Counted from the stretch's first letter, positions 8,503 to 54,993 are shown. The stretch is DNA of 64,000 bases from Candidatus Hydrothermarchaeota archaeon (GCA_015521565.1 WANX01000002.1:7308-71307); one strand, 5' to 3'. A program made the numbers and translations. The notes: a model not told the origin generated them from the sequence alone.

Positions 8503-8513
8503 GGTTTAAATAA
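8503..8513 (+). promoter_or_regulatory. TATA-box-like element (gtttaaataa) about 30 bp upstream of the ATPase start codon
   Basis: Archaeal promoter geometry (TATA at about -27/-30) relative to the ATG at 8538. Confidence 0.4.
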
Positions 8514-8537
8514 CAATGCTTTAGAAATAAGATTTTG

Positions 8538-15654: not shown

Positions 15655-15657
15655 CTC

Positions 15658-22364: not shown

Positions 22365-23089
22365 CCTCGGCTCCCCCTCGTATAGTGGGCGAACACCTCT
22401 TCCAGCGTGGGCGAGTCGCGACCTGCACCCCCGAGCTCCGCCTTTAGCTCCTCCGGTCTCCCCAGGGCCACGAGTCTGCCCCGGTGCAGTATTCCCAGCC
22501 GGGTGCACAGCTGCTCCGCCTCGTCCAGGTAGTGGGTGCACAGCAGAACTGTCTTCTTTCCCCTGAGTCCTGAGACGAAGTCCCGGAGCTCCTTCGCCGT
22601 AAGCGGGTCAAGTCCCATGGTTGGCTCGTCCAGCACGAGAATCTCGGGGTCGTGCAGGAGGGCGCGGGCTATTGAGATGCGCTGCCTCATCCCCTTGGAG
22701 AAGGTGGAAATCCTCACGTCGGCCTTGTCCAGCATTCCCACCAGAGCAAGAAGCTCCTCTATCCTGCCTTCAGCATCCCGCACACCGTAAAGGGAGGCGA
22801 AGAAGCGCAGCAGCTGCCTCGGAGTCATGCGCTCATACAGGCTGGGCTCTTCGGGCAGGTAGCCTATCATTCGCTTCACGCGCACACCGTCTCTGGCGAC
22901 ATCCATGCCAGCCACGGTGACCCTGCCGGAGGTGGGCTTCAGCACTCCACAGAGCAGGCGAATCGCAGTGGTTTTGCCTGCGCCGTTGGGTCCCACCAGG
23001 GCGAAGAGTTCTCCCCTCTCTATGGTAAGCGTCAGCTCGCGCAGCGCCGTCACATTGTAAAACCTCTTTGTTACGCGCTCAAAGCGAAT
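22361..23089 (-). CDS. ABC transporter ATP-binding protein
   Basis: Walker A GPNGAGKTT, signature FSKGMRQR and Walker B ILVLDEPT. The start is set at MIRFERV. Confidence 0.85.
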   Translation of the reverse strand: MRFERVTKRFYNVTALRELTLTIERGELFALVGPNGAGKTTAIRLLCGVLKPTSGRVTVAGMDVARDGVRVKRMIGYLPEEPSLYERMTPRQLLRFFASLYGVRDAEGRIEELLALVGMLDKADVRISTFSKGMRQRISIARALLHDPEILVLDEPTMGLDPLTAKELRDFVSGLRGKKTVLLCTHYLDEAEQLCTRLGILHRGRLVALGRPEELKAELGGAGRDSPTLEEVFAHYTRGSRG

Positions 23090-30246: not shown

Positions 30247-30288
30247 AGATTAATATTGCACCTTCCCGTAGTAAACATTACTGAGACC

Positions 30289-32208
30289 ATGCTGGCGAGA
30301 GTGCTATTGGCCCCGGTGGCAAAGGCTCTGGTGTTCCTGCTGGAGAGGAACGGCGCGGAGAGAAGTTTGGCCGTGCTCGCCTTTTCCACAGCCACAACGC
30401 TGCTCGCATGCGTGCTGCTCTACTTCACCCTTGTCCTGAATCCCTACTCATCATGGCTGAAGCTTGCCCTTATTGCGCTGCTGCTGCTGAGCGCCCTCTC
30501 AGGGGAGGTGCTGCACCGCATGAGCCAGGCTTCTGAGGTGAAGCGCACCCTCGACTCACTCCTGGACTTTGCGGTTTACTTCACAGCGCTGTACTTTCTG
30601 CCTGCGGCGATGTACCTTCCACAGTTTGTGCCCTGGATTACCAGGCGGGAGTACCTCCTCCTCTTTCTGCTCCTCGCTGCTGGTGCAGTGATGCACAGAA
30701 TGCTCGGAGGTTTTGCACAATGGCTCAGTGCAAGGTCTGAGAGGCTGTTGCTGTATTCTCTTATCCTGGTCGCAGGATTTTATACCAATTTTGAGACCGC
30801 CGTGCTGACTGGTGTGGTCGCCATCTCGCTGCTGATGTACCTCAGCCTTCTCGGGGGGAGATTGAGAAAGCCAGGGATTTCAGCTCATCTGCTCCGACCT
30901 GTGCGAGGGCTGCCCCTTCTTCTGCTGAGGGTTGCGGCGGGCTTCGCTTTACTGCTGCGCAGGGGTGCCGGAGTTGCGGCGGGTGCTGCCGGGCTTCTGA
31001 AAAGACGACGGCATCAGGAGCCAGAGCTTTCTCCGGAGGAGCCGGAGGAGCCATACCGCGGCCACAGGTTTACTGTGATGGTAACCGATGAGATGGAGAA
31101 CCCGGTGGAGGGTGCAAGGGTGGTTCTCCACAACATGGATACAGGCTTGGAGGAGGTACGCATCAGCGACAGCGGCGGCAGGTGCAGATTTGAAGGACTC
31201 ATCCCGGGTGAGTATATGATTGTGATAGACGGTGAAGGGATCGCCCCGGAGAAGCACAGACGCTACATCAGCATGGACCAGGGGGAGGTCTTTGCTGTGA
31301 GGCTCAGGAGCAGCGATCTGAGTGTGGTGGTGAGCCGGCGGGAGCTTGGAACACCCGTCAGAGATGCCCTCGTAAAGCTCAGTGGTAAGAATTTTCACAG
31401 AGAAGCCAGGACCAACAACCTTGGTGTGGCGTACTTCGACTCTCTGGAGATGGGGGAGTACCTGCTCGAGGTTGAGGCTGAAGGATACAGAAGCTACTCC
31501 AGACCTGTGAGCCTCTTCTCGGAGAATGTGGTTGCGGTGCCTCTTGAGCCGTTGGAGGAGCGGGCTGTGGATGAAAGGGCTGAGAAACCGCGGAGGGAGA
31601 AGGAAACGCAGGAGGAGGCGCCGGAAAGACGCGGACTGGAGGAGCGAGAGCCTGTAATGGAGAAGCTTGGACCTGAAGAAGAAGAGGTGATTTTTGGCGA
31701 GTCTGCACTTATTGAGTACTCCTCTGATACAAAGCTGGAGGATGTGGTGGCAGGCATAGTGAGTGAACACGTGGCCAACGGCAGGGATGTGTTTCTGGTG
31801 AGCATGCAGCCGCGTACCTCCAAGTACAGGAGAATGTTCTCGGAGCTGATGCAGGAGGGCAGGGTGAGGGTAATAAACCTGGCTACCAGGGGGAAGCCTC
31901 CGGAAAGCGACTCCGGCATAGAGGAGGTTCCCATCTCCAACCTGGAGTACTTCAGCGCAGTGTTTGAGGAAATGCCGGCGGGTGCGCTGCTGGTCTTTGA
32001 GCCGCTTTCGAGCGTGATACTAACCATAGGCGCAGAGCATGCATACCGCTTCGTTTCCCGCACAGTGGAGCACCTGAGCAACGAGGGGCTGTTCCTCATC
32101 TGCTTTATCAACAGGGAAATGCACAGTGCGAGAGAGCTCTCCAGCTTCAGGGAGCTCTTTATGAACGTGGCTGAAATCAGAGATGGAAAGATAAGGAGGA
32201 CCAGATAG
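30289..32208 (+). CDS. Multi-domain membrane protein: about 6 TM helices, two Ig-like (CarboxypepD_reg-like) domains and a C-terminal KaiC-like DUF835-type domain
   Basis: Lies inside a spurious 1007-aa ORF. The real start is ATG 30289 (MLARVLLAPV). Repeats ARVVLHNMDTG...GEYMIVID and ALVKLSGKN...GEYLLEVEAEGY. The tail (VFLVSMQPRTSKYRRMF...LICFINRE) has no Walker A. Confidence 0.55.
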   Translation: MLARVLLAPVAKALVFLLERNGAERSLAVLAFSTATTLLACVLLYFTLVLNPYSSWLKLALIALLLLSALSGEVLHRMSQASEVKRTLDSLLDFAVYFTALYFLPAAMYLPQFVPWITRREYLLLFLLLAAGAVMHRMLGGFAQWLSARSERLLLYSLILVAGFYTNFETAVLTGVVAISLLMYLSLLGGRLRKPGISAHLLRPVRGLPLLLLRVAAGFALLLRRGAGVAAGAAGLLKRRRHQEPELSPEEPEEPYRGHRFTVMVTDEMENPVEGARVVLHNMDTGLEEVRISDSGGRCRFEGLIPGEYMIVIDGEGIAPEKHRRYISMDQGEVFAVRLRSSDLSVVVSRRELGTPVRDALVKLSGKNFHREARTNNLGVAYFDSLEMGEYLLEVEAEGYRSYSRPVSLFSENVVAVPLEPLEERAVDERAEKPRREKETQEEAPERRGLEEREPVMEKLGPEEEEVIFGESALIEYSSDTKLEDVVAGIVSEHVANGRDVFLVSMQPRTSKYRRMFSELMQEGRVRVINLATRGKPPESDSGIEEVPISNLEYFSAVFEEMPAGALLVFEPLSSVILTIGAEHAYRFVSRTVEHLSNEGLFLICFINREMHSARELSSFRELFMNVAEIRDGKIRRTR

Positions 32209-40285: not shown

Positions 40286-40861
40286 GTGCATGTGGGGATT
40301 GGGATGGTAAGTTCCTCTGATTTTGAAACTGGCAAAGCTCAGGCATGTGAGGCTGATAGAAGTAAGAACTGGCGCCTCTTCTGGATAGCGGTGGCCGTGG
40401 TGGTTGGACTTATACTTCTGCTCCCTGTGAAGCTCATAACCACCGGGCACGGACTGCTGGAACCCTGGTTTATCGGATATCTCGCCTTTGCGGTGGCCGC
40501 CTTCTCCTTCATAGCGGTTCAGCTCATCAAAAAGCGGTGCGGCCCTGTGCCCACCATGAAGGAGGTGCTCTCAGGTAGAAGGGAGGTGTACACCCGCCGC
40601 AGAGAGGATGAGGTGGAGCTTCCCGAGGAGGATGTAGAGCTTCTCAACAGCATAAGGGAGCTCATGGAGTGGTTTGAAGAGGGGAAAATGACAGGTGGAA
40701 GGTACAGAAACTACCGGGAGAGGCTTGCGGAGATGGAGCGCTGGCTGAGAACCGGGATAAAAAAAGATATTGAAATTAGAAACCTAAGAAAAGAGCTCAA
40801 AAAACTCAGAGAAGAGGTAGAACTGCTGAAAGCGTCTCAGGATGGCAGAGAAAGAGAATAG
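40286..40861 (+). CDS. Membrane-anchored coiled-coil protein, first gene of the signalling operon
   Basis: Two TM helices followed by a charged coiled-coil tail. Overlaps the next gene by 20 nt. Confidence 0.4.
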   Translation: MHVGIGMVSSSDFETGKAQACEADRSKNWRLFWIAVAVVVGLILLLPVKLITTGHGLLEPWFIGYLAFAVAAFSFIAVQLIKKRCGPVPTMKEVLSGRREVYTRRREDEVELPEEDVELLNSIRELMEWFEEGKMTGGRYRNYRERLAEMERWLRTGIKKDIEIRNLRKELKKLREEVELLKASQDGRERE

Positions 40862-41756
40862 CACAGTCGAGCGGGGGGAGTTTGCAGGAATTGAGATAAC
40901 CGATAAAGATATGGAGAATGTGAGGAAATTGAGAGAAATCGTCCTGGCAGAGCTGAGGAATTCCGGGGATGTATCAGAGCATCCGGATTTCGGAAATCTT
41001 GCGGAGAAGATGGAAGAGCTGCTGAGGGTGAGAAGCAGGGCTGTTACGACTGAAACGACCTTTCTGCTCCCCGCAGACTTCGCAAGGCTTGTGGAACTTA
41101 TTTTTTATGCTGTGAGGCGCAGAAGTGGACAGGAGATTCTGATGTATCTCATGAGTTTTATTAAGCTGGTAATCTTCAGCCAGGCACAGTCTCTCGAAAG
41201 CCGCAGGGGCCGGGAAGAGGAGAGCGGGACGCTCTTCAGAAGAATCTTCGAAGCGGCAGCGGACACCATATTCCTTCTTGCACCCGATGGCTCCATACTC
41301 CATGCCAACCCTGCGGCACAGAGAGCTCTGGGCGTGAGCTCAGGTGAGCTGGCGGGGAGAAAGTGCTACAGCGCAATCCACGGACGCAGCGGGTGGTGTG
41401 ACCCTGGCGAGTGTACCATTGAGAAGGTGCTGCGGGGCGAGGTGGTTACCGGAGCGATTCACAGACACAGAAGCGGTGATGACGGCTGGATGGAGGTGGA
41501 GGTCTCCGCCTCCGGCATTGCCGATGAAGAGGGTAGAATAATTGCGGTGGTTGAGGTCGCCAGGGATGTGAGTATCTGGCAGAGCAGGGTACGGGAGCTT
41601 GAAAAGAGGCTGGAAGAGCTGGAGAGGTGGAGAAAGGTTACTGTTGATAGAGAGCTGCGAATGGCGGAGCTTAAAGAGGAGAACCGGAGACTGAGGAAGG
41701 AGATTGAAAGACTGAGGAGGATGTGCACACAGGATGAAGAAAGCCCCGAAGGATGA
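40842..41756 (+). CDS. PAS-domain sensor protein with C-terminal coiled coil
   Basis: PAS core FRRIFEAAADTIFLLAPDGSILHANPAAQRALG. Has a CxxxxxC pair (CYSAIHGRSGWC). Confidence 0.65.
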   Translation: MAEKENSTVERGEFAGIEITDKDMENVRKLREIVLAELRNSGDVSEHPDFGNLAEKMEELLRVRSRAVTTETTFLLPADFARLVELIFYAVRRRSGQEILMYLMSFIKLVIFSQAQSLESRRGREEESGTLFRRIFEAAADTIFLLAPDGSILHANPAAQRALGVSSGELAGRKCYSAIHGRSGWCDPGECTIEKVLRGEVVTGAIHRHRSGDDGWMEVEVSASGIADEEGRIIAVVEVARDVSIWQSRVRELEKRLEELERWRKVTVDRELRMAELKEENRRLRKEIERLRRMCTQDEESPEG

Positions 41757-43845
41757 GGTGGAAAGGCTTAGAAGGATGTACGGGACCCTCGTAGAGGTAA
41801 ACCGGGCGGCTGTACGTGCCGGGAGTGTGGATGAGCTGCTGGAGAGGGTGTGCAGAATTGCGGTGCAGAGGGCAGGACTTGAGTTTGCGTGGGCCGGCAG
41901 GGTAATGGGAAGGCGCGTGAAGCCCCTGTTCTTCCACGGGGGGTCCCCGGCCCATATCCGTGCGGGCATCCCTGCGGCTATTGCAGCTGTGCAGAAGGGA
42001 AAGGCGGTTGTGGAGCCTCAGGAGGAGGACTCCAGGCTCCGCTGCGCTGCAGTTCCGGTGTACATAACTGAAGATACCGCCGTGGCATTTGCATTCTGCT
42101 CTTCAGAACCCGAATTCTTCTCCGGTTCAGGACGGGAGTTCTTTGAGCAGCTGGCCGGAGATGTATCCTCCGGAGTGGAGCATCTGCGGATGCGGAATGA
42201 AATTGAATACAGATTGCAGAGGCTCAAAAGGTTTGGAGATGCGCTGAGAGAGTTTAATGAAGAGGCCGGCGCGACCGGAGAGAGGCTTCAGAGGATTGTC
42301 AGGCGAACTGCTGCCTGCCTGGGAGTGGACAGGGCAGGGGTGTGGGTCTTCAGTGAAGATGGGTCAAAGCTCGTGTGCCGGGTTATGTATCTGAGGGAAG
42401 ACGACAGGTTTGCTGAGAGCCATGTGCTTGAGTGTGACAGCTTTCCTGAGTACTTCAAGGCGCTTGGGGAGGGAAAAACAGTAGCCTCTGAGGACGCAGC
42501 CGGTGACCCTGAGGTGAAGAAGCTGGCCGGAAGATATCCAGCCGAAGCCGGTGCCAAGGCCCTGATTAACGTGCCTGTAAGAGCAGGCGGCAGAGTTCTC
42601 GGCGTGCTGTGCTGCGAGCATGGAAAGGCGCGTAAGTGGCTGCCGGAGGAGCGGGAGTTCATCGCATCCGTGGCAGGAGTTGTGTCGCACGTCCTGCGGG
42701 GCCACGAGACACGTAAAAGACTGCGGGAGCTCTCTCTATTTCCGGAAAAGAATCCAAATCCTGTTTTTATGGTCGGCAGAAACGGAGAGATTCTCTACAG
42801 AAATCCAGCGGTGCTGAAATACGTGCCCGCACCCGGGGAGGTCTCAAAGCTCCTGCCAGAAAACATCACCCGGCTGGCAATGAGAGCCTGCGATACAGGA
42901 AGGGTTCTGAAGGCGGAGCACAGCTTCCGCGGCAGGTATTTTGAATACACCATCTCTCCGGTCTCTGAGGATGCTGCCAATGTGTACGGCAGGGAGATAA
43001 CCGACGTTAAGAGGGCGCAGGAGGAGCTCGGCAGATACGCCGGAGAGCTGGAGAAGAGTCAGCGTGCCCTGCTCAACATTCTCGAGGATGAGCAGGAGGC
43101 TGTTAAAAAGCTGGAGGAGGCGTACAGAGAACTAAAGACCCTTGACCAGCTTAAAAGCGACATAATCGCAAACGTCAGTCACGAGCTCCGCACACCCATG
43201 ACGATAGCAAAGGGATTTGCGGAGCTGGCGCTGGACGAAAGAGATGAGGAAGAGCGCAGAAGGAACATACTCAGGGTTATCAGGGCGCTGGAGAATCAGA
43301 ACGTAATAATTGGCAACCTCATCACAGTGGCAGAGGCCTCAAGGGAGAAGCTGAAGCTCCAGGTGTCCTCCTTCCCCGTAAGAGAGCTCATCAAAGCAGC
43401 CCTCGACAGGAAAAGGGATGAGATAAAAAGCAGAGGACTCATGCTTGAGGTGGAGATTGAGGATTGTGAAGTGGCGGGCGACCTCAGGAGGCTCACCAGC
43501 GTGCTTTCCAACATCCTGGACAACGCAATAAAGTTCAACCGTCCGGGAGGAGAGATAAGGGTAGAGGTGCGCAGGGGCAGGGGAAATGTGCTTATAACGG
43601 TGAGTGATACAGGTATAGGAATCCCGGGTGATGTCATGCCAAAAATCTTCGACCCCCTGTATCAGGCGGACGCCACGGCGCGGCGGAGATATGGAGGAAC
43701 CGGAATGGGACTGGCGGTTGCCAGAATAGTGGTGGAGGCACACGGAGGAGAAATATACGCAAGCAGCAGCCCGGGTAAGGGGTCCCGGTTTACTGTGGTG
43801 CTTCCTTCGGGAGGATTTAAGGATGAAAAAGGTGCTGGTGGTTGA
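41734..43845 (+). CDS. Sensor histidine kinase (GAF, PAS, HisKA, HATPase_c)
   Basis: H-box SHELRTPMT. N, G1 and G2 boxes (LDNAIKFN, DTGIGIP, GGTGMGLAV). Confidence 0.85.
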   Translation: MKKAPKDEVERLRRMYGTLVEVNRAAVRAGSVDELLERVCRIAVQRAGLEFAWAGRVMGRRVKPLFFHGGSPAHIRAGIPAAIAAVQKGKAVVEPQEEDSRLRCAAVPVYITEDTAVAFAFCSSEPEFFSGSGREFFEQLAGDVSSGVEHLRMRNEIEYRLQRLKRFGDALREFNEEAGATGERLQRIVRRTAACLGVDRAGVWVFSEDGSKLVCRVMYLREDDRFAESHVLECDSFPEYFKALGEGKTVASEDAAGDPEVKKLAGRYPAEAGAKALINVPVRAGGRVLGVLCCEHGKARKWLPEEREFIASVAGVVSHVLRGHETRKRLRELSLFPEKNPNPVFMVGRNGEILYRNPAVLKYVPAPGEVSKLLPENITRLAMRACDTGRVLKAEHSFRGRYFEYTISPVSEDAANVYGREITDVKRAQEELGRYAGELEKSQRALLNILEDEQEAVKKLEEAYRELKTLDQLKSDIIANVSHELRTPMTIAKGFAELALDERDEEERRRNILRVIRALENQNVIIGNLITVAEASREKLKLQVSSFPVRELIKAALDRKRDEIKSRGLMLEVEIEDCEVAGDLRRLTSVLSNILDNAIKFNRPGGEIRVEVRRGRGNVLITVSDTGIGIPGDVMPKIFDPLYQADATARRRYGGTGMGLAVARIVVEAHGGEIYASSSPGKGSRFTVVLPSGGFKDEKGAGG

Positions 43846-44197
43846 CGACGAGAGGGACATGCTGCGGCTGGTAAAGCGGCTGCTGGAAGATGAGTTTGTG
43901 GTTCTCACTGCCGAGAGCGCAGGTGACGCGCTGGAGCTGGTGAAGAAAGAGATGCCCGATGTGGTGCTCCTTGATATAATGATGCCTGATATGGACGGCT
44001 GGGACTTTCTGGAGAAGTTCCAGAAGCTCAGAGGCGCACAGAAGGTGCCCGTGATTATCTTCAGCATACGCAGCGAGGCGAGTGAGGTGCTCTCGGGGCT
44101 GGCGGTTGAAGGTGTGGCGGACTATATTACAAAGCCTTTTGACCCGAATGAACTCAGGGAGCGGGTGAGGCGGGTGGTGCTGCATGGGAGAGAATAG
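43823..44197 (+). CDS. Single-domain CheY-like response regulator
   Basis: VLVVDDE, LLDIMMPDMDG and conserved Lys (TKPF). Confidence 0.85.
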   Translation: MKKVLVVDDERDMLRLVKRLLEDEFVVLTAESAGDALELVKKEMPDVVLLDIMMPDMDGWDFLEKFQKLRGAQKVPVIIFSIRSEASEVLSGLAVEGVADYITKPFDPNELRERVRRVVLHGRE

Positions 44198-45665
44198 CGC
44201 ACGGGTTGTAAACCTGGGCGACAGGTACTTCTACAGAATAGAGCTGCCGACTCTCACGCCCAGAGAGATGAAGTTTCTTAAGAAGGTGAAGGATGCGGCT
44301 ATCAGGGAGGCGAAGGTTGAGCTGCGCGGGCTTACGAAAGAGCAGATGAAGCAGCACATGCTCTTTGCCGTGCTGGAGATAATGGAACGCCTGAGGGAGG
44401 ACCTGGAGATACCGCCGGAGAAGAAGCAGAAGCTGGCGGAGCTTATTGTGAATGACATGGTGGGCTACGGACTGCTTGAGCCTCTTCTGGAGGATGACGA
44501 TATAGAGGAGATAATGGTTATAGGACCCAAACGACCCGTCTATGTTTTTCACAGGAAGTATGGTATGCTTGAGACCAATGTGGTGTTTCAGAACCCGGAG
44601 GAGATAGTGAACATAATTCAGCGCATCGCCAGCAGTGTGGGAAGGCGAATAGATGCCTCCTCACCGCTGCTGGACGCCCGCCTTCCCGACGGCTCCCGTG
44701 TTAACGCCACGCTGAGTCCACCCGCCCTGGACGGCCCGACACTGACAATAAGGAAGTTCAAAAAGGACCCCCTCACAGTAGTGGACCTCATAAAGTTCAA
44801 CACCCTCAGCAGTGAGGTGGCTGCCTTTCTGTGGCTTATGGTCGATGGCTTCGGTGTGGCACCCAGGAACATACTGATTGCAGGAGGAACCGGAAGTGGA
44901 AAGACCACGACGCTAAACGCCCTTGCAATATTCATCCGGGAGAGGGAGCGCGTTATCACCATCGAGGACACCGCAGAACTGCAGCTGCCCATAAAACACC
45001 TGGTCAGGTTTGAAGTACGTCCACCCAGCATAGAGGGCAGGGGGGAGATAGACATGAATACACTGCTCAAGAACACACTGCGTATGCGCCCCGACAGGAT
45101 AATTATAGGCGAGGTGCGCGGCGAGGAGGCGAAGACCCTGTTTACCGCAATGAACACGGGGCACAGCGGTACCATGGCCACGCTGCACGCCAACTCCGCC
45201 AGGGAATGCATCACACGACTTACCAACGAGCCCATGAACGTTCCGCTTATAATGATCCCCGCTCTTGACCTGATTGTGATGCAGGCCAGGTTTACGCGGG
45301 ATTCCAGGGGCTCCGTTAGACGGATTACGGAGGTAACTGAGGTGGACGGTCTTCGTGAGGGTACAATCGCCCTGAGCAGGCTTTACGAGTACGACCCCGT
45401 GGAGGATGCAATTAAAAGCACTGGCACTCCCAGTGAGCTGAAACAGGTGCTGGCAAAGCAGATGGGTATTACTGTTGACGAGGTGAACGATGAGCTTGAG
45501 CGGAGGAAGCTGGTGCTGGACTATCTGGTGGCGAACAACATCAGGGAGAACTATGAGGTGCGCAGGTGGGTTGAGAGCTTCTACACCCGGCCGGAGCTGA
45601 CCCTTCAAAAGATTGAGAACTCCCTGAGGGCCGCTGTTCAGGAGCCCCCACCGGGAGAGCAATAA
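44184..45665 (+). CDS. Type II/IV secretion-system family ATPase (FlaI/VirB11/TadA-like)
   Basis: Walker A GGTGSGKTT, Asp box, Walker B RIIIGEVRG, His box TMATLHAN. N-terminal domain is FlaI/GspE-like. Confidence 0.8.
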   Translation: MGENSARVVNLGDRYFYRIELPTLTPREMKFLKKVKDAAIREAKVELRGLTKEQMKQHMLFAVLEIMERLREDLEIPPEKKQKLAELIVNDMVGYGLLEPLLEDDDIEEIMVIGPKRPVYVFHRKYGMLETNVVFQNPEEIVNIIQRIASSVGRRIDASSPLLDARLPDGSRVNATLSPPALDGPTLTIRKFKKDPLTVVDLIKFNTLSSEVAAFLWLMVDGFGVAPRNILIAGGTGSGKTTTLNALAIFIRERERVITIEDTAELQLPIKHLVRFEVRPPSIEGRGEIDMNTLLKNTLRMRPDRIIIGEVRGEEAKTLFTAMNTGHSGTMATLHANSARECITRLTNEPMNVPLIMIPALDLIVMQARFTRDSRGSVRRITEVTEVDGLREGTIALSRLYEYDPVEDAIKSTGTPSELKQVLAKQMGITVDEVNDELERRKLVLDYLVANNIRENYEVRRWVESFYTRPELTLQKIENSLRAAVQEPPPGEQ

Positions 45666-49311: not shown

Positions 49312-52300
49312 CTATTGCTCCGGCCTCCTTCCCAGTAGCAGCAGCGGCAGCACCGCTATGAGTGCCACAAAGGTTGGACCGCAGATACCCTTTTTCTCAG
49401 CGGGCTCAGAGGGCTGTGGTTCTTCCGGAGCTGGCTCCGGCTTCTTTTCGGGCTCTGGCACCTTCTTTACAGGTGGAGAGGTCTCCGGCTGTTCCTGCGG
49501 GGAAACCGGTGCGGGAGGTTTCTCCTCAGGCGCCGGGGCAGCTGATGGCGGAGGGCTCGCCACCTCCTCCACCTGGGCGAATATATCCCTGAAACCCGAG
49601 TTCTCCCTGCCGGTGATGGCAAACCAGCTGAAGCCCGGTGTTTCCGCGGTGTAGTAGAAGGTTCCGTTCTCCACCTTTTCAGGTCTGGTGGTCAGCTTCT
49701 CCCATTTCTTGTTTTCATTCAGGCGGTACATTGCCACCGTTGACGGGTCGATGTCGTTGTCCCTGAGCCAGGCCTCCTTCACCAGGAAGGTTATACTGGC
49801 TTTCTTTACATAGGTGCCGGGCTTGCTGTACTTTATCAGTAAGTAACTGTAGAGTCTGCCTGGTGCGGGATCGAAAATCACCCAGTCCGGCTTCTTTGAG
49901 TAGGTGCTGACTCTGACCTTTGCATAGTGCTGGTCCCGGGCGGCGAAGACTTCTATACTGGAGATGTGGGGCACATACTTCCGGTTGAAAACTGCCACAT
50001 AGCTTTCGCCTGCCTTTATTCTGGGAATCTCCACGGTATTCTTCGGCGCACCGCCGCCACCGCCGCCTGCTGAAGGTGGCGGGCTGGCTGTGGTAAAGCT
50101 GAATTCAGCGCTCTGGTTGGAGTGGCCAGCTCTGTCGGTGCTGTTTACCACAAAGTAGTACCTGGTTCCAGAGCTGAGCCCCGTCAGTTTGAGGGTGTGG
50201 GCTGTTTTTGGAGTGGTGTTGCCGACGCTCCAGGAGTACTTCCCGGAGGAGGTGCCGTAGAGCACAAGGCTGCCAGCAGGTTCGTCTGTCTGCCAGCTGA
50301 CTACGGCACTGCTCTGAGTAACAGAGGACACCTTGACGCCGGTTATCACCGGCGGGGATATGTCAACACCCATGGGGGCAAAAACGCTGAAGCGGGTGAG
50401 GTTGGAGTGCACATACCTGCCGGCAGTGTTAACCGCGTTTGTACCCGGGACTGGCTCCCAGCCGGTGCCGTTGTACCGCCATATGCGCAGGGTGCTCTCA
50501 TTTACACCGGCACTGCTGATGTCCGAGGGGGTGTAGCTGAAGTTGATGTACACCCAGGCGCTGCTGGTGTTGGTGATGTTCAGATACTTGCCCAGGCTCC
50601 TGTAGCCCGCAGGCTCCAGGGCCGGCGATGAGGTGGCGTTTATAATTATATCCCCGGTGAAGCTGAGGTTGAGCTTCACCCCTCCAATTGATGTCTCTGC
50701 CACGCGTGTATTCGGGGCGAAGGATGCCCTGAAGTCAATGCTGTTCTGAATCAGTGCAACCCGGTTCAGCACATTGCTGTCGGAGCTGTCTATCAGGACC
50801 CCGCTGCCGGAGTGTTTTACTGTGACGTTCTGCAGCGTATTGCTCTTGCTACTGGAACTGATTCTGATACCACCGCCCGGGTTTGCCTCGATGGTGGACC
50901 TGACAAGCCTGTTGTTGCTGGAGGAGAGGAAGTATGCTCCGATGTAGCTCGAGCTTATTCTGCTGTCTGAGATGTTGTTGCCGCCGGAGTAGTTGAGGTA
51001 GATGCCCATCTTGGAGTTGCTGCTGGCGGTGACGTTGATTATGATGTTGTTCTCTGACCTGTGCAGCAGGACTCCGTAGTCCCCGTTGGAGCCGGCGTGG
51101 TTGTCCTCAATTGTGGAAAAGTTGGAATTTTCCAGATGTATTCCGCTCCTGTTGTTGGCGGTGGCGTTGTTACCCTTTACGGAGTTCAGCAGGGAGCTGT
51201 AGATGTAGACCCCGCTGTAGTTGTTCCCTGCGATGCGGTTGGTGTAAATCTGGTTCTGATTGGAGGCGTCCAGCACAATACCATGCCTGTAGCTCCCCGA
51301 AACTGTGTTCCCGGAAAGGGTGACGTTGGTGGAGCGCACAATCTCCACACCGTACTTTCTGCTGGAGCTTATTGTGTTTCCGCTGATAAGATTGTCTCTG
51401 GACCTGTCCATGAGGATACCCCACAAATTGCCGCTCAGGGTGTTGTGGCTGATGTTGGTGAGGTTGGACGACTGCAGGTATATGCCCTGGTTTAAGCTGG
51501 TGCTTATAACATTCCCGGAAAGCAGGTTGCTGTTCGATGACTCCAGAATTACGCCATAGGTGTTGGAGGTAAGGTTGTTGCCGCTGAGGGTGTTGCTCAC
51601 ACTGCTCATGTTCAGATGAACACCCGCCAGGGTGTTGTTTACCAGAGTGTTGTAGCGTATCTGGTTGCCTCTGGAGGTCTCAAGCAGAATGCCGGAGACG
51701 TTTATAGTGTCCTTTATGATGTTGTCATCCACTGTTGTGTCGTTCACATTCTGGAGATAGACGCCTGTTGAGTTGCTCCCGGTTATGGTATTGTTCAGAA
51801 CTGAGCTCAGGTTGGAGTTGACAGACCATATACCGAATTCGTTCTCTGAAAGGGTGTTGTTGAAAATCCTGGCGTAGCTGCTGGCGTCGATGACAATGCC
51901 GTCGTAGCTTCTGTTGACCGTGTTGTTCTCTATGCTGGTGCTGTTGGACCTGAGTGAAATTATGGCGTATCGGGAGGCGAGGGTTATCTGATTCCCGGCA
52001 ACCTCCACGCTGTTCGACCTCTCGACAAATATGCCATCTGTGCCTGAGCTTATCCGGTTCATAAGCGCCTGCGTCGAGCTGGAGCGCAGGAGGTAGATGC
52101 CGATGTTTGCGGAGTTTATTATTGTGTTGCCCTTTACAACACTGCCTATGGCATCGGTGAGGTCAATGCCATCGTCCAGATTATCCCTGAGGGTGTTGTA
52201 CCTAACCACATTGTTGAGACCGCCTATGGCTATGCCGTCCTGTGAATTGCCAGATGCAAAGTTGTTCTCCACGGTGTTGGCATCAGAGCTCACCAGGAAG

Positions 52301-53655
52301 ATTCCTGTGCCGGTGTTCTGGCTGGCATTATTGCCTCTGATTGAGTTGACCTTTGAGTTCTGAATGTATATCCCTGTTGTACTGGAAACGATGGTGGTGT
52401 TCTCTACCAGACTGCTGTTTACCTGGTTGAAACGAATTCCGGAGTTCCCCCAGTCAGTAAGTCTGAGATTTATCACCTTCACATTCACCAGCGTCGTGGT
52501 GGCGTTGTTCACATAGACTCCGGAGGTCCCCAGGGTGTCCACACCGTCTATTACCATGCCCGCGCCGTCAAAGACCACATTGCTCGAGGTTATGTTTATG
52601 CACGCCGTGGTGGTGCTGTTTATTATGCTGGTGTTCAGCACATAATAGCCGGGAGAGCTCAGTGCAGCGCAGGTGCTTATGTTGTTTACAGGTGGAGGTG
52701 TGGACAGGGGCAGGTAGTCGATGTTGGTGGAGTTGATTGTGTAGGTGGAGTCACAGATTCCGTCGTGGTCTGCATCGGTGCAGCTGTCACTGTGGCCGGT
52801 GCCGCTGGGAGAGCCCCAGTAGTTGCCACCGATGAAAGGCCCCCCAACTATGTTACCGCCTGCCCTCAGGCTTGTGTTCCACTTATTTGTGGACACAGTC
52901 TGATAGAAGTGGATGTTGGCGGTGTTGTTGAATTTGTTGTTGTAAATCAGGTTGTCAGCGGGAGCTAAAACGAAGTATATCCCATAACTGCCGCTGTTTT
53001 CTATGACATTACCTGAGATTATGTTACCGCTGGCCGTGGAACGGTATATATAAATTCCGTTTATTTTTGAATTGAGAATCCGGTTGTTTATTATCGTATT
53101 ATTTCTACCGGAAATATAAATTCCATGGTTGTTGCCCTCTATGAGGTTGTCGCTCAGATTGTTTCTGCTTCCGGTGATAATACCGTAACTGTTGAAAGAG
53201 GCGTTGCTGCCGGTAATTGTGTTGTCCTGACCATCAACCTGAATCCCCGAATAGATGTTGGAGCTTGCCGTTACCCCGGCAACCGCTCCTTTTCCGGCTG
53301 TGAAGTAAATTCCTCCGTACCAGTCGGTGAGGGTGACGTTCTTAACTGTAATGTTGGTGAAGGCGACTCCTGAAATCACGGGCACATAGATGCCGTAGGT
53401 GTAGGAGCTGTTGTCCACACCGTCTATTACCCTGCCCGCGCCGTCGAAGACCACATTGCTCGAGCTTATGTTTATGCACACCTTGGCGGTGCTGTTTATT
53501 ATGCTGGTGTTCAGCACATAATAGCCGGGAGAGCTTATAACTGTGCATGAGTTCACAGCAGTTGCGGCATGCACCGCCGGCAGCAGAGTTAACACAAGCA
53601 TAAGCCCCAGAACCCGCAATAAAGACCCACTCCTTGTGATGGATGCCATCGCCAT
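49312..53655 (-). CDS. Giant secreted parallel-beta-helix surface glycoprotein (1447 aa) with Fn3 domain, Pro/Thr-rich stalk and PGF-CTERM-like anchor
   Basis: Signal peptide. Dozens of about 22-aa right-handed beta-helix (NosD/pectate-lyase-like) repeats with N-x-S/T sequons. Fn3 domain (VVSWQTDEPAGS...YYFVVNSTD). PEPAPEEP stalk. C-terminus GPTFVALIAVLPLLLLGRRPEQ. Confidence 0.8.
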   Translation of the reverse strand: MAMASITRSGSLLRVLGLMLVLTLLPAVHAATAVNSCTVISSPGYYVLNTSIINSTAKVCINISSSNVVFDGAGRVIDGVDNSSYTYGIYVPVISGVAFTNITVKNVTLTDWYGGIYFTAGKGAVAGVTASSNIYSGIQVDGQDNTITGSNASFNSYGIITGSRNNLSDNLIEGNNHGIYISGRNNTIINNRILNSKINGIYIYRSTASGNIISGNVIENSGSYGIYFVLAPADNLIYNNKFNNTANIHFYQTVSTNKWNTSLRAGGNIVGGPFIGGNYWGSPSGTGHSDSCTDADHDGICDSTYTINSTNIDYLPLSTPPPVNNISTCAALSSPGYYVLNTSIINSTTTACINITSSNVVFDGAGMVIDGVDTLGTSGVYVNNATTTLVNVKVINLRLTDWGNSGIRFNQVNSSLVENTTIVSSTTGIYIQNSKVNSIRGNNASQNTGTGIFLVSSDANTVENNFASGNSQDGIAIGGLNNVVRYNTLRDNLDDGIDLTDAIGSVVKGNTIINSANIGIYLLRSSSTQALMNRISSGTDGIFVERSNSVEVAGNQITLASRYAIISLRSNSTSIENNTVNRSYDGIVIDASSYARIFNNTLSENEFGIWSVNSNLSSVLNNTITGSNSTGVYLQNVNDTTVDDNIIKDTINVSGILLETSRGNQIRYNTLVNNTLAGVHLNMSSVSNTLSGNNLTSNTYGVILESSNSNLLSGNVISTSLNQGIYLQSSNLTNISHNTLSGNLWGILMDRSRDNLISGNTISSSRKYGVEIVRSTNVTLSGNTVSGSYRHGIVLDASNQNQIYTNRIAGNNYSGVYIYSSLLNSVKGNNATANNRSGIHLENSNFSTIEDNHAGSNGDYGVLLHRSENNIIINVTASSNSKMGIYLNYSGGNNISDSRISSSYIGAYFLSSSNNRLVRSTIEANPGGGIRISSSSKSNTLQNVTVKHSGSGVLIDSSDSNVLNRVALIQNSIDFRASFAPNTRVAETSIGGVKLNLSFTGDIIINATSSPALEPAGYRSLGKYLNITNTSSAWVYINFSYTPSDISSAGVNESTLRIWRYNGTGWEPVPGTNAVNTAGRYVHSNLTRFSVFAPMGVDISPPVITGVKVSSVTQSSAVVSWQTDEPAGSLVLYGTSSGKYSWSVGNTTPKTAHTLKLTGLSSGTRYYFVVNSTDRAGHSNQSAEFSFTTASPPPSAGGGGGGAPKNTVEIPRIKAGESYVAVFNRKYVPHISSIEVFAARDQHYAKVRVSTYSKKPDWVIFDPAPGRLYSYLLIKYSKPGTYVKKASITFLVKEAWLRDNDIDPSTVAMYRLNENKKWEKLTTRPEKVENGTFYYTAETPGFSWFAITGRENSGFRDIFAQVEEVASPPPSAAPAPEEKPPAPVSPQEQPETSPPVKKVPEPEKKPEPAPEEPQPSEPAEKKGICGPTFVALIAVLPLLLLGRRPEQ

Positions 53656-53851
53656 TTCAAATACACCTCATGAGCTGATGCGGAATAAATTGATAAAATA
53701 AGCACAGATTTTTTATATTTTACGTTTAATATGTTTTAAAATGCGTTACTTTGTAATACAACCAAAAATAAGATGATATGTATCATAAGAATGTTCCATG
53801 ACTCGAAACTTTGTTTCACATTCCGAAAGCCGCCTCAGTGTCCCGGACACC

Positions 53852-54676
53852 TCAGAATTCAAGGAATGTGCCCCTGTCCCAGAAGTAGTTTATTATCTCC
53901 CCAACCCACTCCACAAACTCCGGCTCGCCGGACATGAAACCGCTGTCCAGGTTGGAGCCGCCACCTCTGTAGGGGAAGTTTATTCCGGCTATCCTGCTGT
54001 CCACAACGATTGCATGCATAAGAACTTCGGGATGCTCTTTCATCCGGAAGTTTTCCCTGAAGCTCCTGAGCCGGGCACCGCTCAGCCCATGGCTGCTCAC
54101 AAACTGCGCGGCGTACTTCTGCCTCACCTCCGCATATCCCGTGCTGCATATGCCGCGATATTGCACCCCCTGAAGCACCTTGTTGCCAACCAGCTCGAAA
54201 AACTGATACGACGGTCTGTCGGCAAGCATGTCAATGCTTTCCTCCGCCTGCTGGATGCGCATCAGAAGCTCTGTTATCAGTGAGAAGGGGTCTTTAATAA
54301 ACCTGGCACTGTTCAGCAGTTTCAGACCGTGGATGAATCTTTTCGGAAGGTAGGAGATGCTCACCCTGTTCAGCGGCTCAACCCTGGTGTTTATTGCGCT
54401 GATGTTCTGAGCTATGTCCTGAAAGCTTCTGGATATGTAGAAGCCCAGATTTGTGAGCCGGTATCTGCCCGCCTTTTCGTCCACCAGCCCTATCTTTTTA
54501 AGAGAATCCAGATAGCGCTTCACAGTGGCAAAGGACTTCTCGGCTCCCGCCTTTATGAGAGCCCGGCGCACATCTGCAACGCTGACGGGAACCTCGTTCA
54601 TAAGGCCAAGCACAGCCAGCCTGTTGTCCAGTGCACACTCGGAAAGAATTTGCTGTAGAGAAATACCATTTTTCAT
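53852..54676 (-). CDS. Archaeal winged-helix transcriptional regulator (FilR1/DUF1724-like)
   Basis: N-terminal wHTH (LAVLGLMNEVPVSVADVRRALIKAG...VKRYLDSLKKIGLV) and a C-terminal alpha/beta domain. Divergent from the surface-protein gene. Confidence 0.55.
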   Translation of the reverse strand: MKNGISLQQILSECALDNRLAVLGLMNEVPVSVADVRRALIKAGAEKSFATVKRYLDSLKKIGLVDEKAGRYRLTNLGFYISRSFQDIAQNISAINTRVEPLNRVSISYLPKRFIHGLKLLNSARFIKDPFSLITELLMRIQQAEESIDMLADRPSYQFFELVGNKVLQGVQYRGICSTGYAEVRQKYAAQFVSSHGLSGARLRSFRENFRMKEHPEVLMHAIVVDSRIAGINFPYRGGGSNLDSGFMSGEPEFVEWVGEIINYFWDRGTFLEF

Positions 54677-54993
54677 GTCATTCTCTCCGCTCTGCAACGG
54701 CATCCACCTTTTAAAGGAAATTCCGGACAGACTTACTCACAGTTTTATGCAATGCTTTCTTGTTGCGGTGCGGATTCGTCCATCACGACATGCTGCTGCT
54801 AATTCAGAATTAAGAAAAAAGATAACCTGAATAAAGATATTAAATTATAAAATTTTGTGATATTTGTCCCCTGTTTTGTAAAAAAAATTTATATGATTGT
54901 GCGCAGTTCGCGGGCGCGCAGGTACTGTGCAGGCCCAAAATTTTTTAAGATATATCCGTGTAATAATAGTTAAAAGGGGGAAGAGAGATAAAA

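What the first reader, a model, noticed from the sequence alone, without database searches (positions are those of the whole stretch)
49312..54676. 1447-aa beta-helix surface glycoprotein with duplicated N-terminal module, Fn3, PT-rich stalk and a GPTF variant of PGF-CTERM, next to a FilR1-like regulator
The protein is built almost entirely from about 22-residue parallel beta-helix turns carrying abundant N-x-S/T sequons, which are probable N-glycosylation sites. The first ~300 aa are internally duplicated (CTVISSPGYYVLNTSIINSTAKVCINISSSNVVFDGAGRVIDGVDN and CAALSSPGYYVLNTSIINSTTTACINITSSNVVFDGAGMVIDGVDT). The C-terminus has an Fn3 domain and a Pro/Glu/Thr-rich linker. It ends with GPTFVALIAVLPLLLLGRRPEQ, which looks like a PGF-CTERM archaeosortase (ArtA) signal with Thr in place of Gly. 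This is a plausible S-layer, sheath or adhesin component. The divergent wHTH regulator is a candidate dedicated regulator.
Basis: partly seen in the sequence, partly recalled or inferred. Interest (0 to 1): 0.5.

Follow-up and report, generated by a model that had tools for sequence, protein, structure and literature searches.

The report
Archaeal surface protein with cysteine-type anchor
This is a large sugar-coated surface protein of a deep-subsurface archaeon whose tail is not the PGF signal proposed but a Cys-Gly-Pro anchoring signal so far reported only from Thermococcales, and it travels with its own conserved regulator gene.

Summary
The 1447-aa ORF (49312-53655, minus strand) is real. 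It is intact in four of five other metagenome assemblies of Candidatus Pyrohabitans sp. (Hydrothermarchaeota).

Its layout is: Sec signal peptide, two tandem NosD-type beta-helix modules, a partial pre-PGF-like stretch, Fn3, a full PGF-pre-PGF domain, a Pro/Glu/Lys/Ala stalk, and the tail KKGICGPTFVALIAVLPLLLLGRRPEQ.

The tail is not a PGF-CTERM variant:
- The PGF-CTERM model gives no hit.
- The Phe is not conserved.
- Gly-Ile-Cys-Gly-Pro recurs in beta-helix proteins, S8 peptidases and a 483-aa protein of this lineage.
- 30 of 41 such tails match the CGP-CTERM model. This one scores 17.7 bits against a cut-off of 21.

The published description limits CGP-CTERM to Thermococcales and predicts a CPBP protease (MrtA) as its processing enzyme. 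I could not test whether MrtA is present.

The regulator lies upstream on the same strand. It has a wHTH plus a DUF1724/PLD-like domain, and its model resembles TrmB and TrmBL2. The regulator/beta-helix pair is conserved in three other genomic contexts, with a conserved TATA box, Shine-Dalgarno sequence and palindromic sites in the spacer. In related genomes, different heads are swapped onto the same anchor module.

Verdict: a new variant of a known kind, of moderate interest.

The parts
49312..53655 (-). CDS of the 1447-aa surface protein (stop codon 49312-49314)
   Evidence: ORF list. Intact near-identical copies in L002-L004 and L010. Also present as P0039, a 1448-aa representative whose C-terminal 248 residues are identical to the query.
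53566..53655 (-). Sec-type signal peptide, residues 1-30 (MAMASITRSGSLLRVLGLMLVLTLLPAVHA|AT)
   Evidence: Read directly from the sequence: basic n-region, hydrophobic core, AVHA-A cleavage-type site. The equivalent N-termini in orthologues end in AVHG/AHA. Inferred; no predictor was run.
52690..53556 (-). Beta-helix module 1 (residues ~34-322). Has an N-terminal cap with Cys37/Cys60 and a C-terminal cap GGNYWG...DSCTDADHDGICD with Cys292/Cys301.
   Evidence: Pfam NosD best stretch 84-285 covers profile positions 14-212 of 212. Cys positions. The module is absent from the L016 orthologue.
50776..52680 (-). Beta-helix module 2 (residues ~326-960), about 27 turns of 22-23 residues
   Evidence: NosD, Beta_helix and TIGR03804 stretches. 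Autocorrelation peaks at lag 23 and at 45-46. Weak PDB sequence matches to AlgG and NosD.
53412..53535 (.). Copy 1 of the 124-nt intragenic direct repeat (encodes cap 1)
   Evidence: the repeat finder family D1, 95% identity, 876-nt spacing. The L001 assembly anomaly maps here.
52536..52659 (.). Copy 2 of the 124-nt intragenic direct repeat (encodes cap 2)
   Evidence: The window's cap 2 resembles its own cap 1 (37/48) more than the orthologous cap 2 of L020 (31/48), which suggests intragenic conversion.
50377..50556 (-). Partial pre-PGF-like stretch (residues 1034-1093)
   Evidence: TIGR04213 profile positions 90-150 of 153, 21.4 bits, below the cut-off of 28.
50089..50346 (-). Fibronectin type III domain (residues 1104-1189)
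   Evidence: Pfam fn3 26.9 bits (cut-off 25) and Pur_ac_phosph_N 45.6 bits (cut-off 30).
49609..50010 (-). PGF-pre-PGF domain (residues 1216-1349), a beta-sandwich; it contains the internal 'ETPGFSWFAI' motif
   Evidence: TIGR04213 96.8 bits, cut-off 28. The AF2 model has pLDDT 83-94 only over this domain. 3778 representative proteins match residues 1200-1447 at E<=0.001.
49387..49590 (-). Pro/Glu/Ala/Lys-rich stalk (residues 1356-1423), ending in E-K-K-G
   Evidence: Composition 20 P, 13 E, 8 A, 7 K, 1 T in 68 residues. Modelled as disordered.
49315..49386 (-). CGP-CTERM-type tail (residues 1424-1447): I-C1425-G-P, then TFVALIAVLPLLLL, then GRRPEQ
   Evidence: TIGR04288 17.7 bits against a cut-off of 21; no TIGR04126 hit. 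The motif is conserved in relatives. It is the only such tail in the window.
53656..53851 (-). Spacer carrying the beta-helix gene's own promoter. TATA-like AAAATATAAAAAA at 53709-53721, Shine-Dalgarno GAGGTG at 53664-53669, oligo-T at about 53765-53775.
   Evidence: Five-sequence alignment across regulator divergence of 55-65% identity: the TATA stretch and TGAGGT are invariant. Sequence. Function is inferred.
53805..53816 (-). Distal palindromic site (G)AAAC-AAA-GTTTC, a candidate operator
   Evidence: One of only two matches to WWACAAAGTWWC in the 64 kb window. The core AAC-WWW-GTT falls in the equivalent spacer in L016 (2 of its 2 matches), L018 (2 of 2), L020 (1 of 1) and L002 (1 of 2).
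53745..53756 (-). Proximal palindromic site TTAC-AAA-GTAA(C), about 23 nt upstream of the TATA box
53852..54703 (-). Regulator gene. Maximal ORF 283 aa; called as 281 aa from TTG at 54697 in other assemblies. wHTH at residues ~25-102, DUF1724/PLD-like domain at ~120-283.
   Evidence: Pfam HTH_45 25.8 bits (cut-off 25.5), HVO_A0261_N 31.5 (cut-off 35), FilR1_middle 17.8 (cut-off 27). Family-wide hits. AF2 model pLDDT 75. Foldseek matches TrmBL2 at 2.8e-10 and TrmB at 3.8e-7.

Best explanation
The gene encodes a cell-surface protein of Candidatus Pyrohabitans sp. (Hydrothermarchaeota).

Proposed path of the protein:
1. It is exported through Sec. Its two NosD/CASH-type beta-helix heads are heavily N-glycosylated.
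2. A conserved anchor module holds the heads away from the membrane. The module consists of the PGF-pre-PGF domain, a Pro/Glu/Lys stalk and a 24-residue tail.
3. The tail is a CGP-CTERM-type, cysteine-containing tripartite sorting signal: G-I-C-G-P abutting a transmembrane helix with a conserved mid-helix Pro, then an Arg cluster.
4. By analogy with CGP-CTERM and MYXO-CTERM, the invariant Cys is expected to be lipid-modified. The transmembrane helix is then expected to be cut off by a CPBP/Rce1-type intramembrane protease (MrtA-like), leaving a lipid-anchored protein.

Expression comes from the gene's own TATA/SD promoter. The adjacent upstream TrmB/FilR1-like regulator (wHTH plus PLD-fold effector domain) probably controls it by binding two palindromic sites upstream of the TATA box. 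That position suggests activation.

The head most likely binds or processes an extracellular glycan or acts as an adhesin, with the regulator sensing a related small molecule.

Shown here: the architecture, the motif conservation, the HMM class of the tail, the taxon, the synteny and the promoter/site conservation.
Inferred: glycosylation, lipidation and cleavage, the identity of the protease, regulator binding and its sign, and the head's ligand.
For: Architecture.

Tail class:
- TIGR04288 is the best hit for this tail and the only one with E<0.1 (17.7 bits).
- Tails of relatives score 14-26.5 bits; P0004 and P0031 exceed the cut-off of 21.
- 30 of 41 tails match TIGR04288 and 1 of 41 matches TIGR04126.
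- Position-specific conservation is E-K-[KR]-G-I-C-G-P-[TS] with Pro at +12 in 22 of 41 and Arg at +16 to +19.

Many unrelated heads carry the tail:
- Beta-helix proteins of 862-1812 aa, S8 peptidases (P0043, P0135) and the 483-aa family P0002-P0007.
- At least 2-3 occur per assembly, in GCA_002010065.2 and GCA_054014855.1.
- 18 of the 30 closest 50%-identity cluster representatives carry it, against no PGF tails among those 30.

Taxon: the identical GatB sequence is WP_457554422.1 of Candidatus Pyrohabitans sp..

Mechanistic analogy: Haft 2023, doi 10.1101/2023.06.07.544157.

Regulator link:
- The pair is conserved, co-directional with a 150-200-nt spacer, in three other contexts at 58-65% regulator identity.
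- Regulator and head move together as a cassette.
- TATA box, SD and palindromes are conserved.
- The regulator model has a TrmBL2/TrmB-like fold.
Against: - This protein's own tail scores below the curated CGP-CTERM cut-off (15.7-17.7 bits against 21).
- The 30 residues before the motif are Pro/Glu/Lys-rich, not Thr/Ser-rich as described for Thermococcales.
- No CPBP protease, archaeosortase or AglB gene lies in the window or in any fetched locus (and the gene tables). The cognate enzyme is therefore unverified.
- The MrtA assignment is itself only an in-silico prediction.
- The PGF-pre-PGF domain is, as its name implies, normally found ahead of PGF-CTERM (my recollection of the TIGR04213 description, not tested here).
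- No expression, glycosylation or binding data exist.
- The count of the palindromic motif in the whole window (2, against 1.2 expected) is not significant on its own. The support comes only from its location and its conservation.
Confidence: 0.55

Rival explanations
1. The tail is a diverged PGF-CTERM signal. Archaeosortase A cleaves it and attaches an archaetidylethanolamine-type lipid, as for the Haloferax S-layer glycoprotein.
For: The tail has the tripartite architecture. A bona fide PGF-pre-PGF domain lies directly upstream. Three of the 150 best relatives of that domain do end in true PGF-CTERM tails.
Against: TIGR04126 gives no hit at E<=10, and only 1 of 41 related tails hits it. The 'F' of GPTF is present in 4 of 41 tails. 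The Cys, which PGF-CTERM lacks, is invariant in the relatives found without any tail filter, and the adjacent G-I is conserved in 36 of 41 tails. No archaeosortase gene is in the window or the fetched loci.
Confidence: 0.1
2. The tail is simply a permanent C-terminal transmembrane anchor. Its juxtamembrane G-I-C-G-P motif is conserved for structural or oligomerisation reasons, for example a disulfide or palmitoyl-like modification. No proteolytic sorting takes place.
For: 112 of the 150 best relatives of the anchor domain end in plain transmembrane-plus-basic tails with no motif. A plain anchor is therefore the commonest solution for this domain. No sorting enzyme has been found.
Against: The motif, its spacing to the helix, the mid-helix Pro and the Arg cluster are conserved across unrelated heads and across proteins only 30-60% identical. 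This is the signature of an enzyme-recognised signal. The tails match an HMM built from an independent lineage.
Confidence: 0.25
3. The protein is the main S-layer (lattice-forming) protein of the cell rather than an accessory adhesin or glycan-binding protein.
For: It is large, sequon-rich and C-terminally anchored, as archaeal S-layer glycoproteins are. In L016 and L020 the regulator/beta-helix cassette occupies the locus that in L006 and L014 holds another large surface-protein pair.
Against: The architecture varies: 1172, 1447, 1493 and 1774 aa, with module 1 present or absent. It has a dedicated regulator. Several paralogous beta-helix proteins with the same tail exist per genome. The 1941-aa plus 483-aa pair, a large canopy protein with a small anchored protein, looks more like a two-component S-layer; that is my inference from the SlaA/SlaB precedent.
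Confidence: 0.1

Closest known systems
CGP-CTERM sorting signal (TIGR04288) with predicted archaeomyxosortase MrtA (NF040590) of Thermococcales (Haft 2023, doi 10.1101/2023.06.07.544157)
   Same: C-terminal position. About 20-residue length. Invariant Cys-Gly-Pro abutting the transmembrane helix with no spacer. Arg cluster. Several unrelated proteins per genome. Best-matching HMM.
   Different: A different phylum (Hydrothermarchaeota), whereas the paper calls the signal exclusive to Thermococcales. This tail scores below the curated cut-off. It is preceded by a Pro/Glu/Lys stalk and a PGF-pre-PGF domain rather than a Thr/Ser-rich stretch. G-I before the Cys and a Pro at +12 are additionally conserved. 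Presence of MrtA was not verified.
PGF-CTERM / archaeosortase A (TIGR04126; Haloferax volcanii S-layer glycoprotein)
   Same: Tripartite C-terminal signal on archaeal surface glycoproteins. The PGF-pre-PGF domain lies upstream.
   Different: No Pro-Gly-Phe motif, no HMM hit, and an invariant Cys that PGF-CTERM lacks.
MYXO-CTERM, JDVT-CTERM and Synerg-CTERM (bacterial Cys-containing sorting signals processed by CPBP 'myxosortases')
   Same: An invariant Cys in the signature motif. A few related tails give weak hits to the MYXO-CTERM and Synerg-CTERM models. Synerg-CTERM has a mid-helix Pro, as these tails do.
   Different: Those signals are bacterial, longer and have different motifs. The hits are weaker than those to CGP-CTERM.
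NosD/CASH parallel beta-helix proteins (PF05048, PF13229; NosD PDB 7O0Y, AlgG PDB 4NK8)
   Same: 22-23-residue PbH1 turns, an N-terminal cap and a C-terminal D-x-D-x-DG cap.
   Different: This is not the N2O-reductase maturation protein: TIGR04247 scores 166 bits against a cut-off of 300. It has two tandem modules on a surface-anchor module. No catalytic residues were identified.
TrmB / TrmBL2 (Thermococcales sugar-responsive regulators) and FilR1 (Methanothrix harundinacea)
   Same: An N-terminal wHTH followed by a PLD-fold or DUF1724 effector-type domain. A palindromic candidate operator.
   Different: No Pfam TrmB hit. The FilR1_middle hit is sub-threshold for this protein. It lacks the C-terminal REC domain of FilR1. 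The ligand is unknown.

Membership tests
CGP-CTERM (TIGR04288) | Score at or above the curated HMM cut-off (21 bits) | tested here: not met
   10.7-17.7 bits depending on the context supplied. Relatives score 14-26.5 bits, and P0004 and P0031 exceed the cut-off. 30 of 41 tails match at E<=10, best E 3.2e-7.
CGP-CTERM (TIGR04288) | Tripartite tail at the extreme C-terminus: Cys-Gly-Pro abutting a transmembrane helix, then a basic cluster | tested here: met
   I-C-G-P, then TFVALIAVLPLLLL, then GRRPEQ as the last 24 residues. Conserved in relatives.
CGP-CTERM (TIGR04288) | Carried by several unrelated proteins in one genome | tested here: met
   GCA_054014855.1 has a 1774-aa beta-helix protein and the S8 peptidase P0135. 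GCA_002010065.2 has adjacent 862-aa and 1812-aa proteins. P0002 comes from the same metagenome samples as the window's strain.
CGP-CTERM (TIGR04288) | Co-occurrence with the predicted sorting protease MrtA (NF040590, CPBP family PF02517) | not testable with these tools
   None in the window or in about 300 kb of fetched loci (and gene tables). No whole genome of the lineage could be searched.
CGP-CTERM (TIGR04288) | Thr/Ser-rich region in the 30 residues before the motif, and restriction to Thermococcales (as described in the paper) | tested here: not met
   The 30 preceding residues are 10 P, 7 E, 6 K, 0 T and 1 S. Pooled relatives are 20% P, 18% E, 13% K and 11% T. The organism is Ca. Pyrohabitans, Hydrothermarchaeota.
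PGF-CTERM (TIGR04126) / ArtA substrate | Pro-Gly-Phe motif and an HMM match | tested here: not met
   No hit at E<=10. 1 of 41 related tails hits. Phe is at +4 in 4 of 41 tails.
PGF-CTERM (TIGR04126) / ArtA substrate | Archaeosortase A encoded in the genome | not testable with these tools
   Absent from the window's multi-transmembrane ORFs. The rest of the genome is not available.
PGF-pre-PGF domain (TIGR04213) | HMM score at or above the cut-off of 28 | tested here: met
   96.8 bits, residues 1216-1349. A second, partial stretch scores 21.4 bits.
NosD / parallel beta-helix (PF05048, PF13229, TIGR03804) | HMM scores above the gathering cut-offs, with repeated PbH1 turns | tested here: met
   410, 278 and 226 bits. 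Period 23. It is not an equivalog of NosD itself: TIGR04247 scores 166 bits against 300.
FilR1-type regulator (wHTH + DUF1724 + REC) | wHTH, FilR1_middle (PF08350) at or above 27 bits, and a C-terminal receiver domain | tested here: not met
   HTH_45 scores 25.8 against 25.5, so it is met. FilR1_middle scores 17.8, so it is not met for this protein, although 6 of 7 family members hit it at E<=0.01. There is no REC domain; the protein ends at residue 283.
TrmB family | Sequence membership (a Pfam TrmB-family hit) or a matching fold | tested here: inconclusive
   No Pfam TrmB-family hit. Foldseek matches TrmBL2 at 2.8e-10 and TrmB at 3.8e-7, but whole-chain TM-scores are only 0.34-0.45. The PLD-fold domain matches give target-normalised TM-scores (TMt) of about 0.6 for the small PLD-fold proteins FAM83, BJ-TSA-9 and NucT.

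The most novel reading that the evidence does not exclude
The Cys-Gly-Pro sorting system is not specific to Thermococcales. Hydrothermarchaeota use it as part of a portable anchor cassette (PGF-pre-PGF domain, Pro/Glu/Lys stalk, CGP tail). Different heads are exchanged onto this cassette by recombination: beta-helix, S8 protease and Ig-like.

One such exchange is visible directly. Genomes L006 and L016 are 93% and 88% identical in the two flanks. They differ by a replacement that ends exactly at the start of the PGF-pre-PGF domain, inside the gene.

A second, phylogenetically separate lineage with the signal would provide the presence/absence contrast that Haft's paper says is missing for identifying the processing enzyme.
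Probability: 0.5. Interest if true: 0.6.

Novelty: new variant of a known kind. Interest (0 to 1): 0.45.

Why it matters
C-terminal sorting signals decide how archaea attach their surface proteins. Only PGF-CTERM/ArtA has been shown experimentally.

CGP-CTERM was described as confined to Thermococcales. Because the signal and a large core proteome are both present in every member of that order, phylogenetic profiling could not single out its enzyme, and MrtA was proposed on weaker grounds.

Finding the same kind of tail on many proteins of Hydrothermarchaeota does three things:
1. It widens the signal's range.
2. It offers a direct test of the MrtA assignment: does an NF040590-like protease co-occur with the tail in this phylum?
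3. It shows that the 'PGF-pre-PGF' domain is not tied to archaeosortase substrates.

The conserved regulator/promoter/surface-protein cassette and the head swap on a fixed anchor module are concrete, testable examples of how uncultivated subsurface archaea vary and control their cell surface.

Tried and rejected
1. A profile search with the aligned tails against the 5.8-billion-protein collection returned one protein only. It did not even recover the training sequences, probably because of composition corrections. Searches failed on parameter limits.
2. The genome-contig scan with the whole protein found no species representative, only a 28%-identical beta-helix stretch. No whole genome of the lineage could therefore be screened for mrtA or artA.
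3. The metagenome DNA-pattern scan for K-[KR]-G-I-C-G-P-T...A...P gave four loci. Three were already-known genes. The fourth (L009, 39.7% GC) is an unrelated 365-aa protein of unknown taxon.
4. A motif and transmembrane screen for CPBP proteases in the window and the loci held at that point (through L015) found nothing, and the gene tables of the later loci list no PF02517. Look-ups at the window's two edges added nothing.
5. The AF2 model of residues 960-1447 was confident only for the PGF-pre-PGF domain. Its PDB fold search was uninformative: the best hits were Ig chains and a weak GAIN-domain match (E 0.017), which I discount.
6. Cluster look-ups gave almost no organism names for the other tail-bearing proteins. 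The taxonomic spread beyond Pyrohabitans-like MAGs is unknown.
7. I considered a link to the nearby PAS/GAF histidine kinase and stand-alone receiver genes (about 40.8-44.2 kb), by analogy with FilI/FilR2. I rejected it because the regulator homologues in L016, L018 and L020 have no such neighbours.
8. Sigma-70 promoter and intrinsic-terminator scans were at shuffle level and do not apply to an archaeon.

Full report
**Observation**

The ORF at 49312-53655 on the minus strand is real and 1447 aa long. A second ORF at 53852-54703 lies 196 nt upstream on the same strand, so the regulator is not divergently transcribed. The protein is overwhelmingly parallel beta-helix:
- Pfam NosD 410 bits in 8 stretches and Beta_helix 278 bits.
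- TIGR03804 repeat in 14 stretches.
- Repeat period of 23 residues, with 22 next.

It holds 55 N-x-S/T sequons, against 32.4 +/- 4.9 in shuffles. 54 of these lie in residues 31-1200. An Fn3 domain sits at residues 1104-1189. The gene is not an assembly artefact. Contigs from other metagenome assemblies that carry an identical GatB also carry the same gene, 97-99.9% identical and intact (L002-L004, L010). One assembly (L001) has a 155-nt local duplication exactly at an internal repeat, which breaks the frame.

**Architecture**

After a Sec-type signal peptide (residues 1-30, cleavage-type site AVHA|A) come two tandem beta-helix modules. Each module opens with the same cap: C-x-x-[IL]-SSPGYYVLNTSIINST-x3-CINI-x-SSNVVFDGAG-x-VIDGVD.
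- The caps are 37/48 identical. They are encoded by a 124-nt direct repeat that is 95% identical (52536-52659 and 53412-53535).
- The rest of the two modules is only 29.6% identical.
- An orthologue at 55% identity (L020) also has two modules.
- The orthologue in L016/L017 (63% identical over the aligned region) lacks module 1. It has a cap-1-like N-terminus joined to module 2, which is what recombination between the two repeats would produce.

- A partial pre-PGF-like stretch at residues 1034-1093 (21.4 bits).
- The Fn3 domain and a Gly run.
- A full PGF-pre-PGF domain at residues 1216-1349 (TIGR04213, 96.8 bits). This was the only part of the C-terminal AF2 model predicted with confidence.
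- A stalk that is Pro/Glu/Ala/Lys-rich with a single Thr, so not PT-rich.

**The tail**

The PGF-CTERM model (TIGR04126) gives no hit to the tail even at E<=10. The best hit is CGP-CTERM (TIGR04288) at 17.7 bits against a cut-off of 21.

Homologues of the C-terminal region include a family of about 485-aa proteins (P0002-P0007), one of them named by NCBI as from Candidatus Pyrohabitans sp. Their tails read EKRGICGPTAVALIAVLPILGRRLKN and similar. Beta-helix proteins next to regulator homologues in three other genomes end the same way.

An exhaustive HMMER search with residues 1200-1447 found 3778 representative proteins at E<=0.001. Of the best 150:
- 35 end in [ILV]-C-[GA]-P tails, including 18 of the top 30.
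- 3 end in true PGF-CTERM tails.
- 112 end in plain transmembrane anchors.

I selected 41 tails for a C[GA]P pattern, so Cys and Pro are invariant among them by construction. The other positions are not constrained by that selection. They show Gly at -2 and Ile at -1 in 36 tails each, Lys/Arg at -3 in 32 tails and Lys at -4 in 25, Pro at +12 in 22, and Arg at +16 to +19. Phe at +4 occurs in only 4. Thirty of the 41 match TIGR04288 (best E 3.2e-7) and one matches TIGR04126. 'GPTF' is therefore a chance resemblance. The recognised motif is G-I-C-G-P.

The tail sits on unrelated heads: beta-helix proteins, S8 peptidases (P0043, P0135) and Ig-like 483-aa proteins. At least two or three occur per assembly.

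**Organism and literature**

The window's GatB is identical to WP_457554422.1 of Candidatus Pyrohabitans sp., a genus of Hydrothermarchaeota named from Juan de Fuca Ridge MAGs. Haft's paper on Cys-containing sorting signals makes three relevant statements (doi 10.1101/2023.06.07.544157):
- CGP-CTERM is found 'so far exclusively' in Thermococcales.
- It is 20 residues long, with an invariant Cys-Gly-Pro abutting the helix, and is preceded by Thr/Ser-rich sequence.
- It is predicted to be processed by a CPBP/Rce1-type protease, MrtA (NF040590), probably after lipid modification of the Cys.

The present tails share the position, the length, the motif and the multi-protein distribution. They differ in taxon and in the preceding sequence, and they hover around the HMM cut-off. 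No CPBP protease, archaeosortase or AglB is encoded in the window or in any fetched locus. Without a whole genome, the key co-occurrence test could not be run.

**A portable anchor module**

L006 and L016 come from related genomes. Their flanks are 93% identical on the left (through an HTH_10 gene) and 88% identical on the right (ThiI and beyond). The right-hand homology starts inside the surface-protein gene. The start point is nt 799 of the 483-aa gene in L006 and nt 2824 of the 1172-aa beta-helix gene in L016, which is the start of the PGF-pre-PGF domain.

Between the flanks, L006 has a 1943-aa gene plus the Ig-like head of the 483-aa protein. L016 has the regulator plus the beta-helix head. 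So heads are exchanged on a fixed anchor module, and the regulator moves with the beta-helix head.

**Regulator and promoter**

The regulator has only seven detectable homologues. In every contig long enough to show the downstream genes, a CGP-tailed beta-helix gene lies downstream on the same strand. These contigs are L016/L017 between HTH_10 and ThiI, L020 upstream of ThiI, and L018 next to S3Ae and DUF92 (there with two small genes in between). The window's context, between GatB and Usp, is different again.

The spacer aligns across these loci. It shows:
- An invariant TATA-like AAAATATAAAAAA (53709-53721).
- An invariant TGAGGT Shine-Dalgarno sequence 8 nt before the ATG. This supports the 1447-aa start.
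- Two palindromic sites, GAAAC-AAA-GTTTC (53805-53816) and TTAC-AAA-GTAA (53745-53756).

These two sites are the only matches to WWACAAAGTWWC in the 64 kb window. The core AAC-WWW-GTT falls in the equivalent spacer in each independent locus: both matches in L016, both in L018, and the single match in L020.

The protein has a wHTH plus a DUF1724-like domain. 7/7 relatives hit HVO_A0261_N and HTH_45, and 6/7 hit FilR1_middle. Its AF2 model (pLDDT 75) matches TrmBL2 (E 2.8e-10), TrmB (3.8e-7) and PLD-fold domains. It lacks the receiver domain of FilR1. Sites upstream of the TATA box suggest activation. That inference rests on what is known of TrmB-family regulators (my knowledge), not on a test here.

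**Mechanism**

Shown here: the domain architecture, the tail class and its conservation, the taxon, the intactness of the gene, the cassette synteny, and the conserved promoter elements.

Inferred: Sec export and N-glycosylation; lipidation at Cys1425 followed by removal of the helix by an MrtA-like protease; regulator binding to the palindromes; and a glycan-binding or adhesive role for the NosD/CASH heads.

Rivals:
- A permanent transmembrane anchor with a conserved juxtamembrane motif (0.25).
- A diverged PGF-CTERM/ArtA substrate (0.10).
- A role as the main S-layer protein (0.10).

**Verdict**

What replaces it is somewhat more interesting: a CGP-CTERM-type signal in a second archaeal phylum, fused to a PGF-pre-PGF anchor module that serves as a platform for head exchange, plus a conserved regulator/operator/surface-protein cassette. 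All of this is computational. The protein itself is an ordinary member of the archaeal beta-helix surface proteins. I rate it a new variant of a known kind, with interest 0.45.

Noticed in passing
window 8001-10417: There is a sharp GC dip: 0.358 against about 0.55-0.60 elsewhere. It holds a 465-aa AAA_21/AAA_15 ATPase ORF (8535-9932). That ORF matches the PADLOC candidate defence family HEC-01A (E 4e-36), also PDC-M07A, AbiLi and AriA-like. A 162-aa partner ORF matches HEC-01B weakly (3e-5). This is probably a small, horizontally acquired two-gene defence island.
   Followed up: partly
L006 4167-11452 and L014 4173-11452, against L016 8001-12565: The locus between an HTH_10 gene and ThiI holds one of two cassettes. 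One is a 1941-1943-aa secreted protein plus a 483-aa CGP-tailed protein, which could be a canopy-plus-anchor S-layer pair. The other is the regulator/beta-helix cassette. The recombination boundary lies inside the gene, at the start of the PGF-pre-PGF domain.
   Followed up: partly
L001 about 15570-15730 (equivalent to window about 53412-53535): One metagenome assembly carries a 155-nt local duplication exactly at the first copy of the 124-nt intragenic repeat, giving a frameshift and a truncated 1369-aa gene call. It is either an assembly error at the repeat or a real population variant.
   Followed up: partly
L016 9047-12565 / L017 3229-6747: This orthologue is 1172 aa and lacks beta-helix module 1. 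Its N-terminal cap resembles cap 1 and is joined to module-2 sequence. That pattern fits deletion by recombination between the two cap repeats.
   Followed up: partly
L009 220-1356: On a 39.7% GC metagenome contig there is an unrelated protein of about 365 aa with a Tyr/Gly-rich region. It ends in KKKGICGPTLIALLAAVPLALRLRRRRRV. Its tail scores 20.2 bits on MYXO-CTERM (cut-off 20) and 14.3 bits on CGP-CTERM. The taxon is unknown.
   Followed up: partly
L024 10001-18015 (GCA_002010065.2): Two adjacent beta-helix proteins (862 aa and 1812 aa) both end in CGP-type tails. They lie next to two tubulin-family (PF00091) genes and an M54 archaemetzincin.
   Followed up: no
window 20673-22541 (-): A 622-aa protein fuses an ABC-2 permease to a PrsW-family intramembrane protease domain. 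It lies next to a second ABC-2 permease gene (19579-20676).
   Followed up: no
window 29185-32208 (+): A 1007-aa protein with about 7 predicted transmembrane segments and CarboxypepD_reg / Ig-like domains. It is another likely envelope protein and has no CGP tail.
   Followed up: no
window 40842-45665 (+): A gene cluster of a PAS protein, a GAF-HisKA-HATPase histidine kinase, a stand-alone receiver and a T2SSE/PilB-type ATPase lies a few kb from the surface-protein gene. It is not linked to the regulator in other genomes.
   Followed up: partly
window 53852-54703 (-), residues 230-248 of the regulator: The regulator family has an invariant H-x4-D-x4-G-x-N-F-P-Y-R-x-G stretch within the PLD-fold domain. 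It resembles a degenerate HKD motif that lacks the Lys, which suggests ligand binding rather than catalysis.
   Followed up: no
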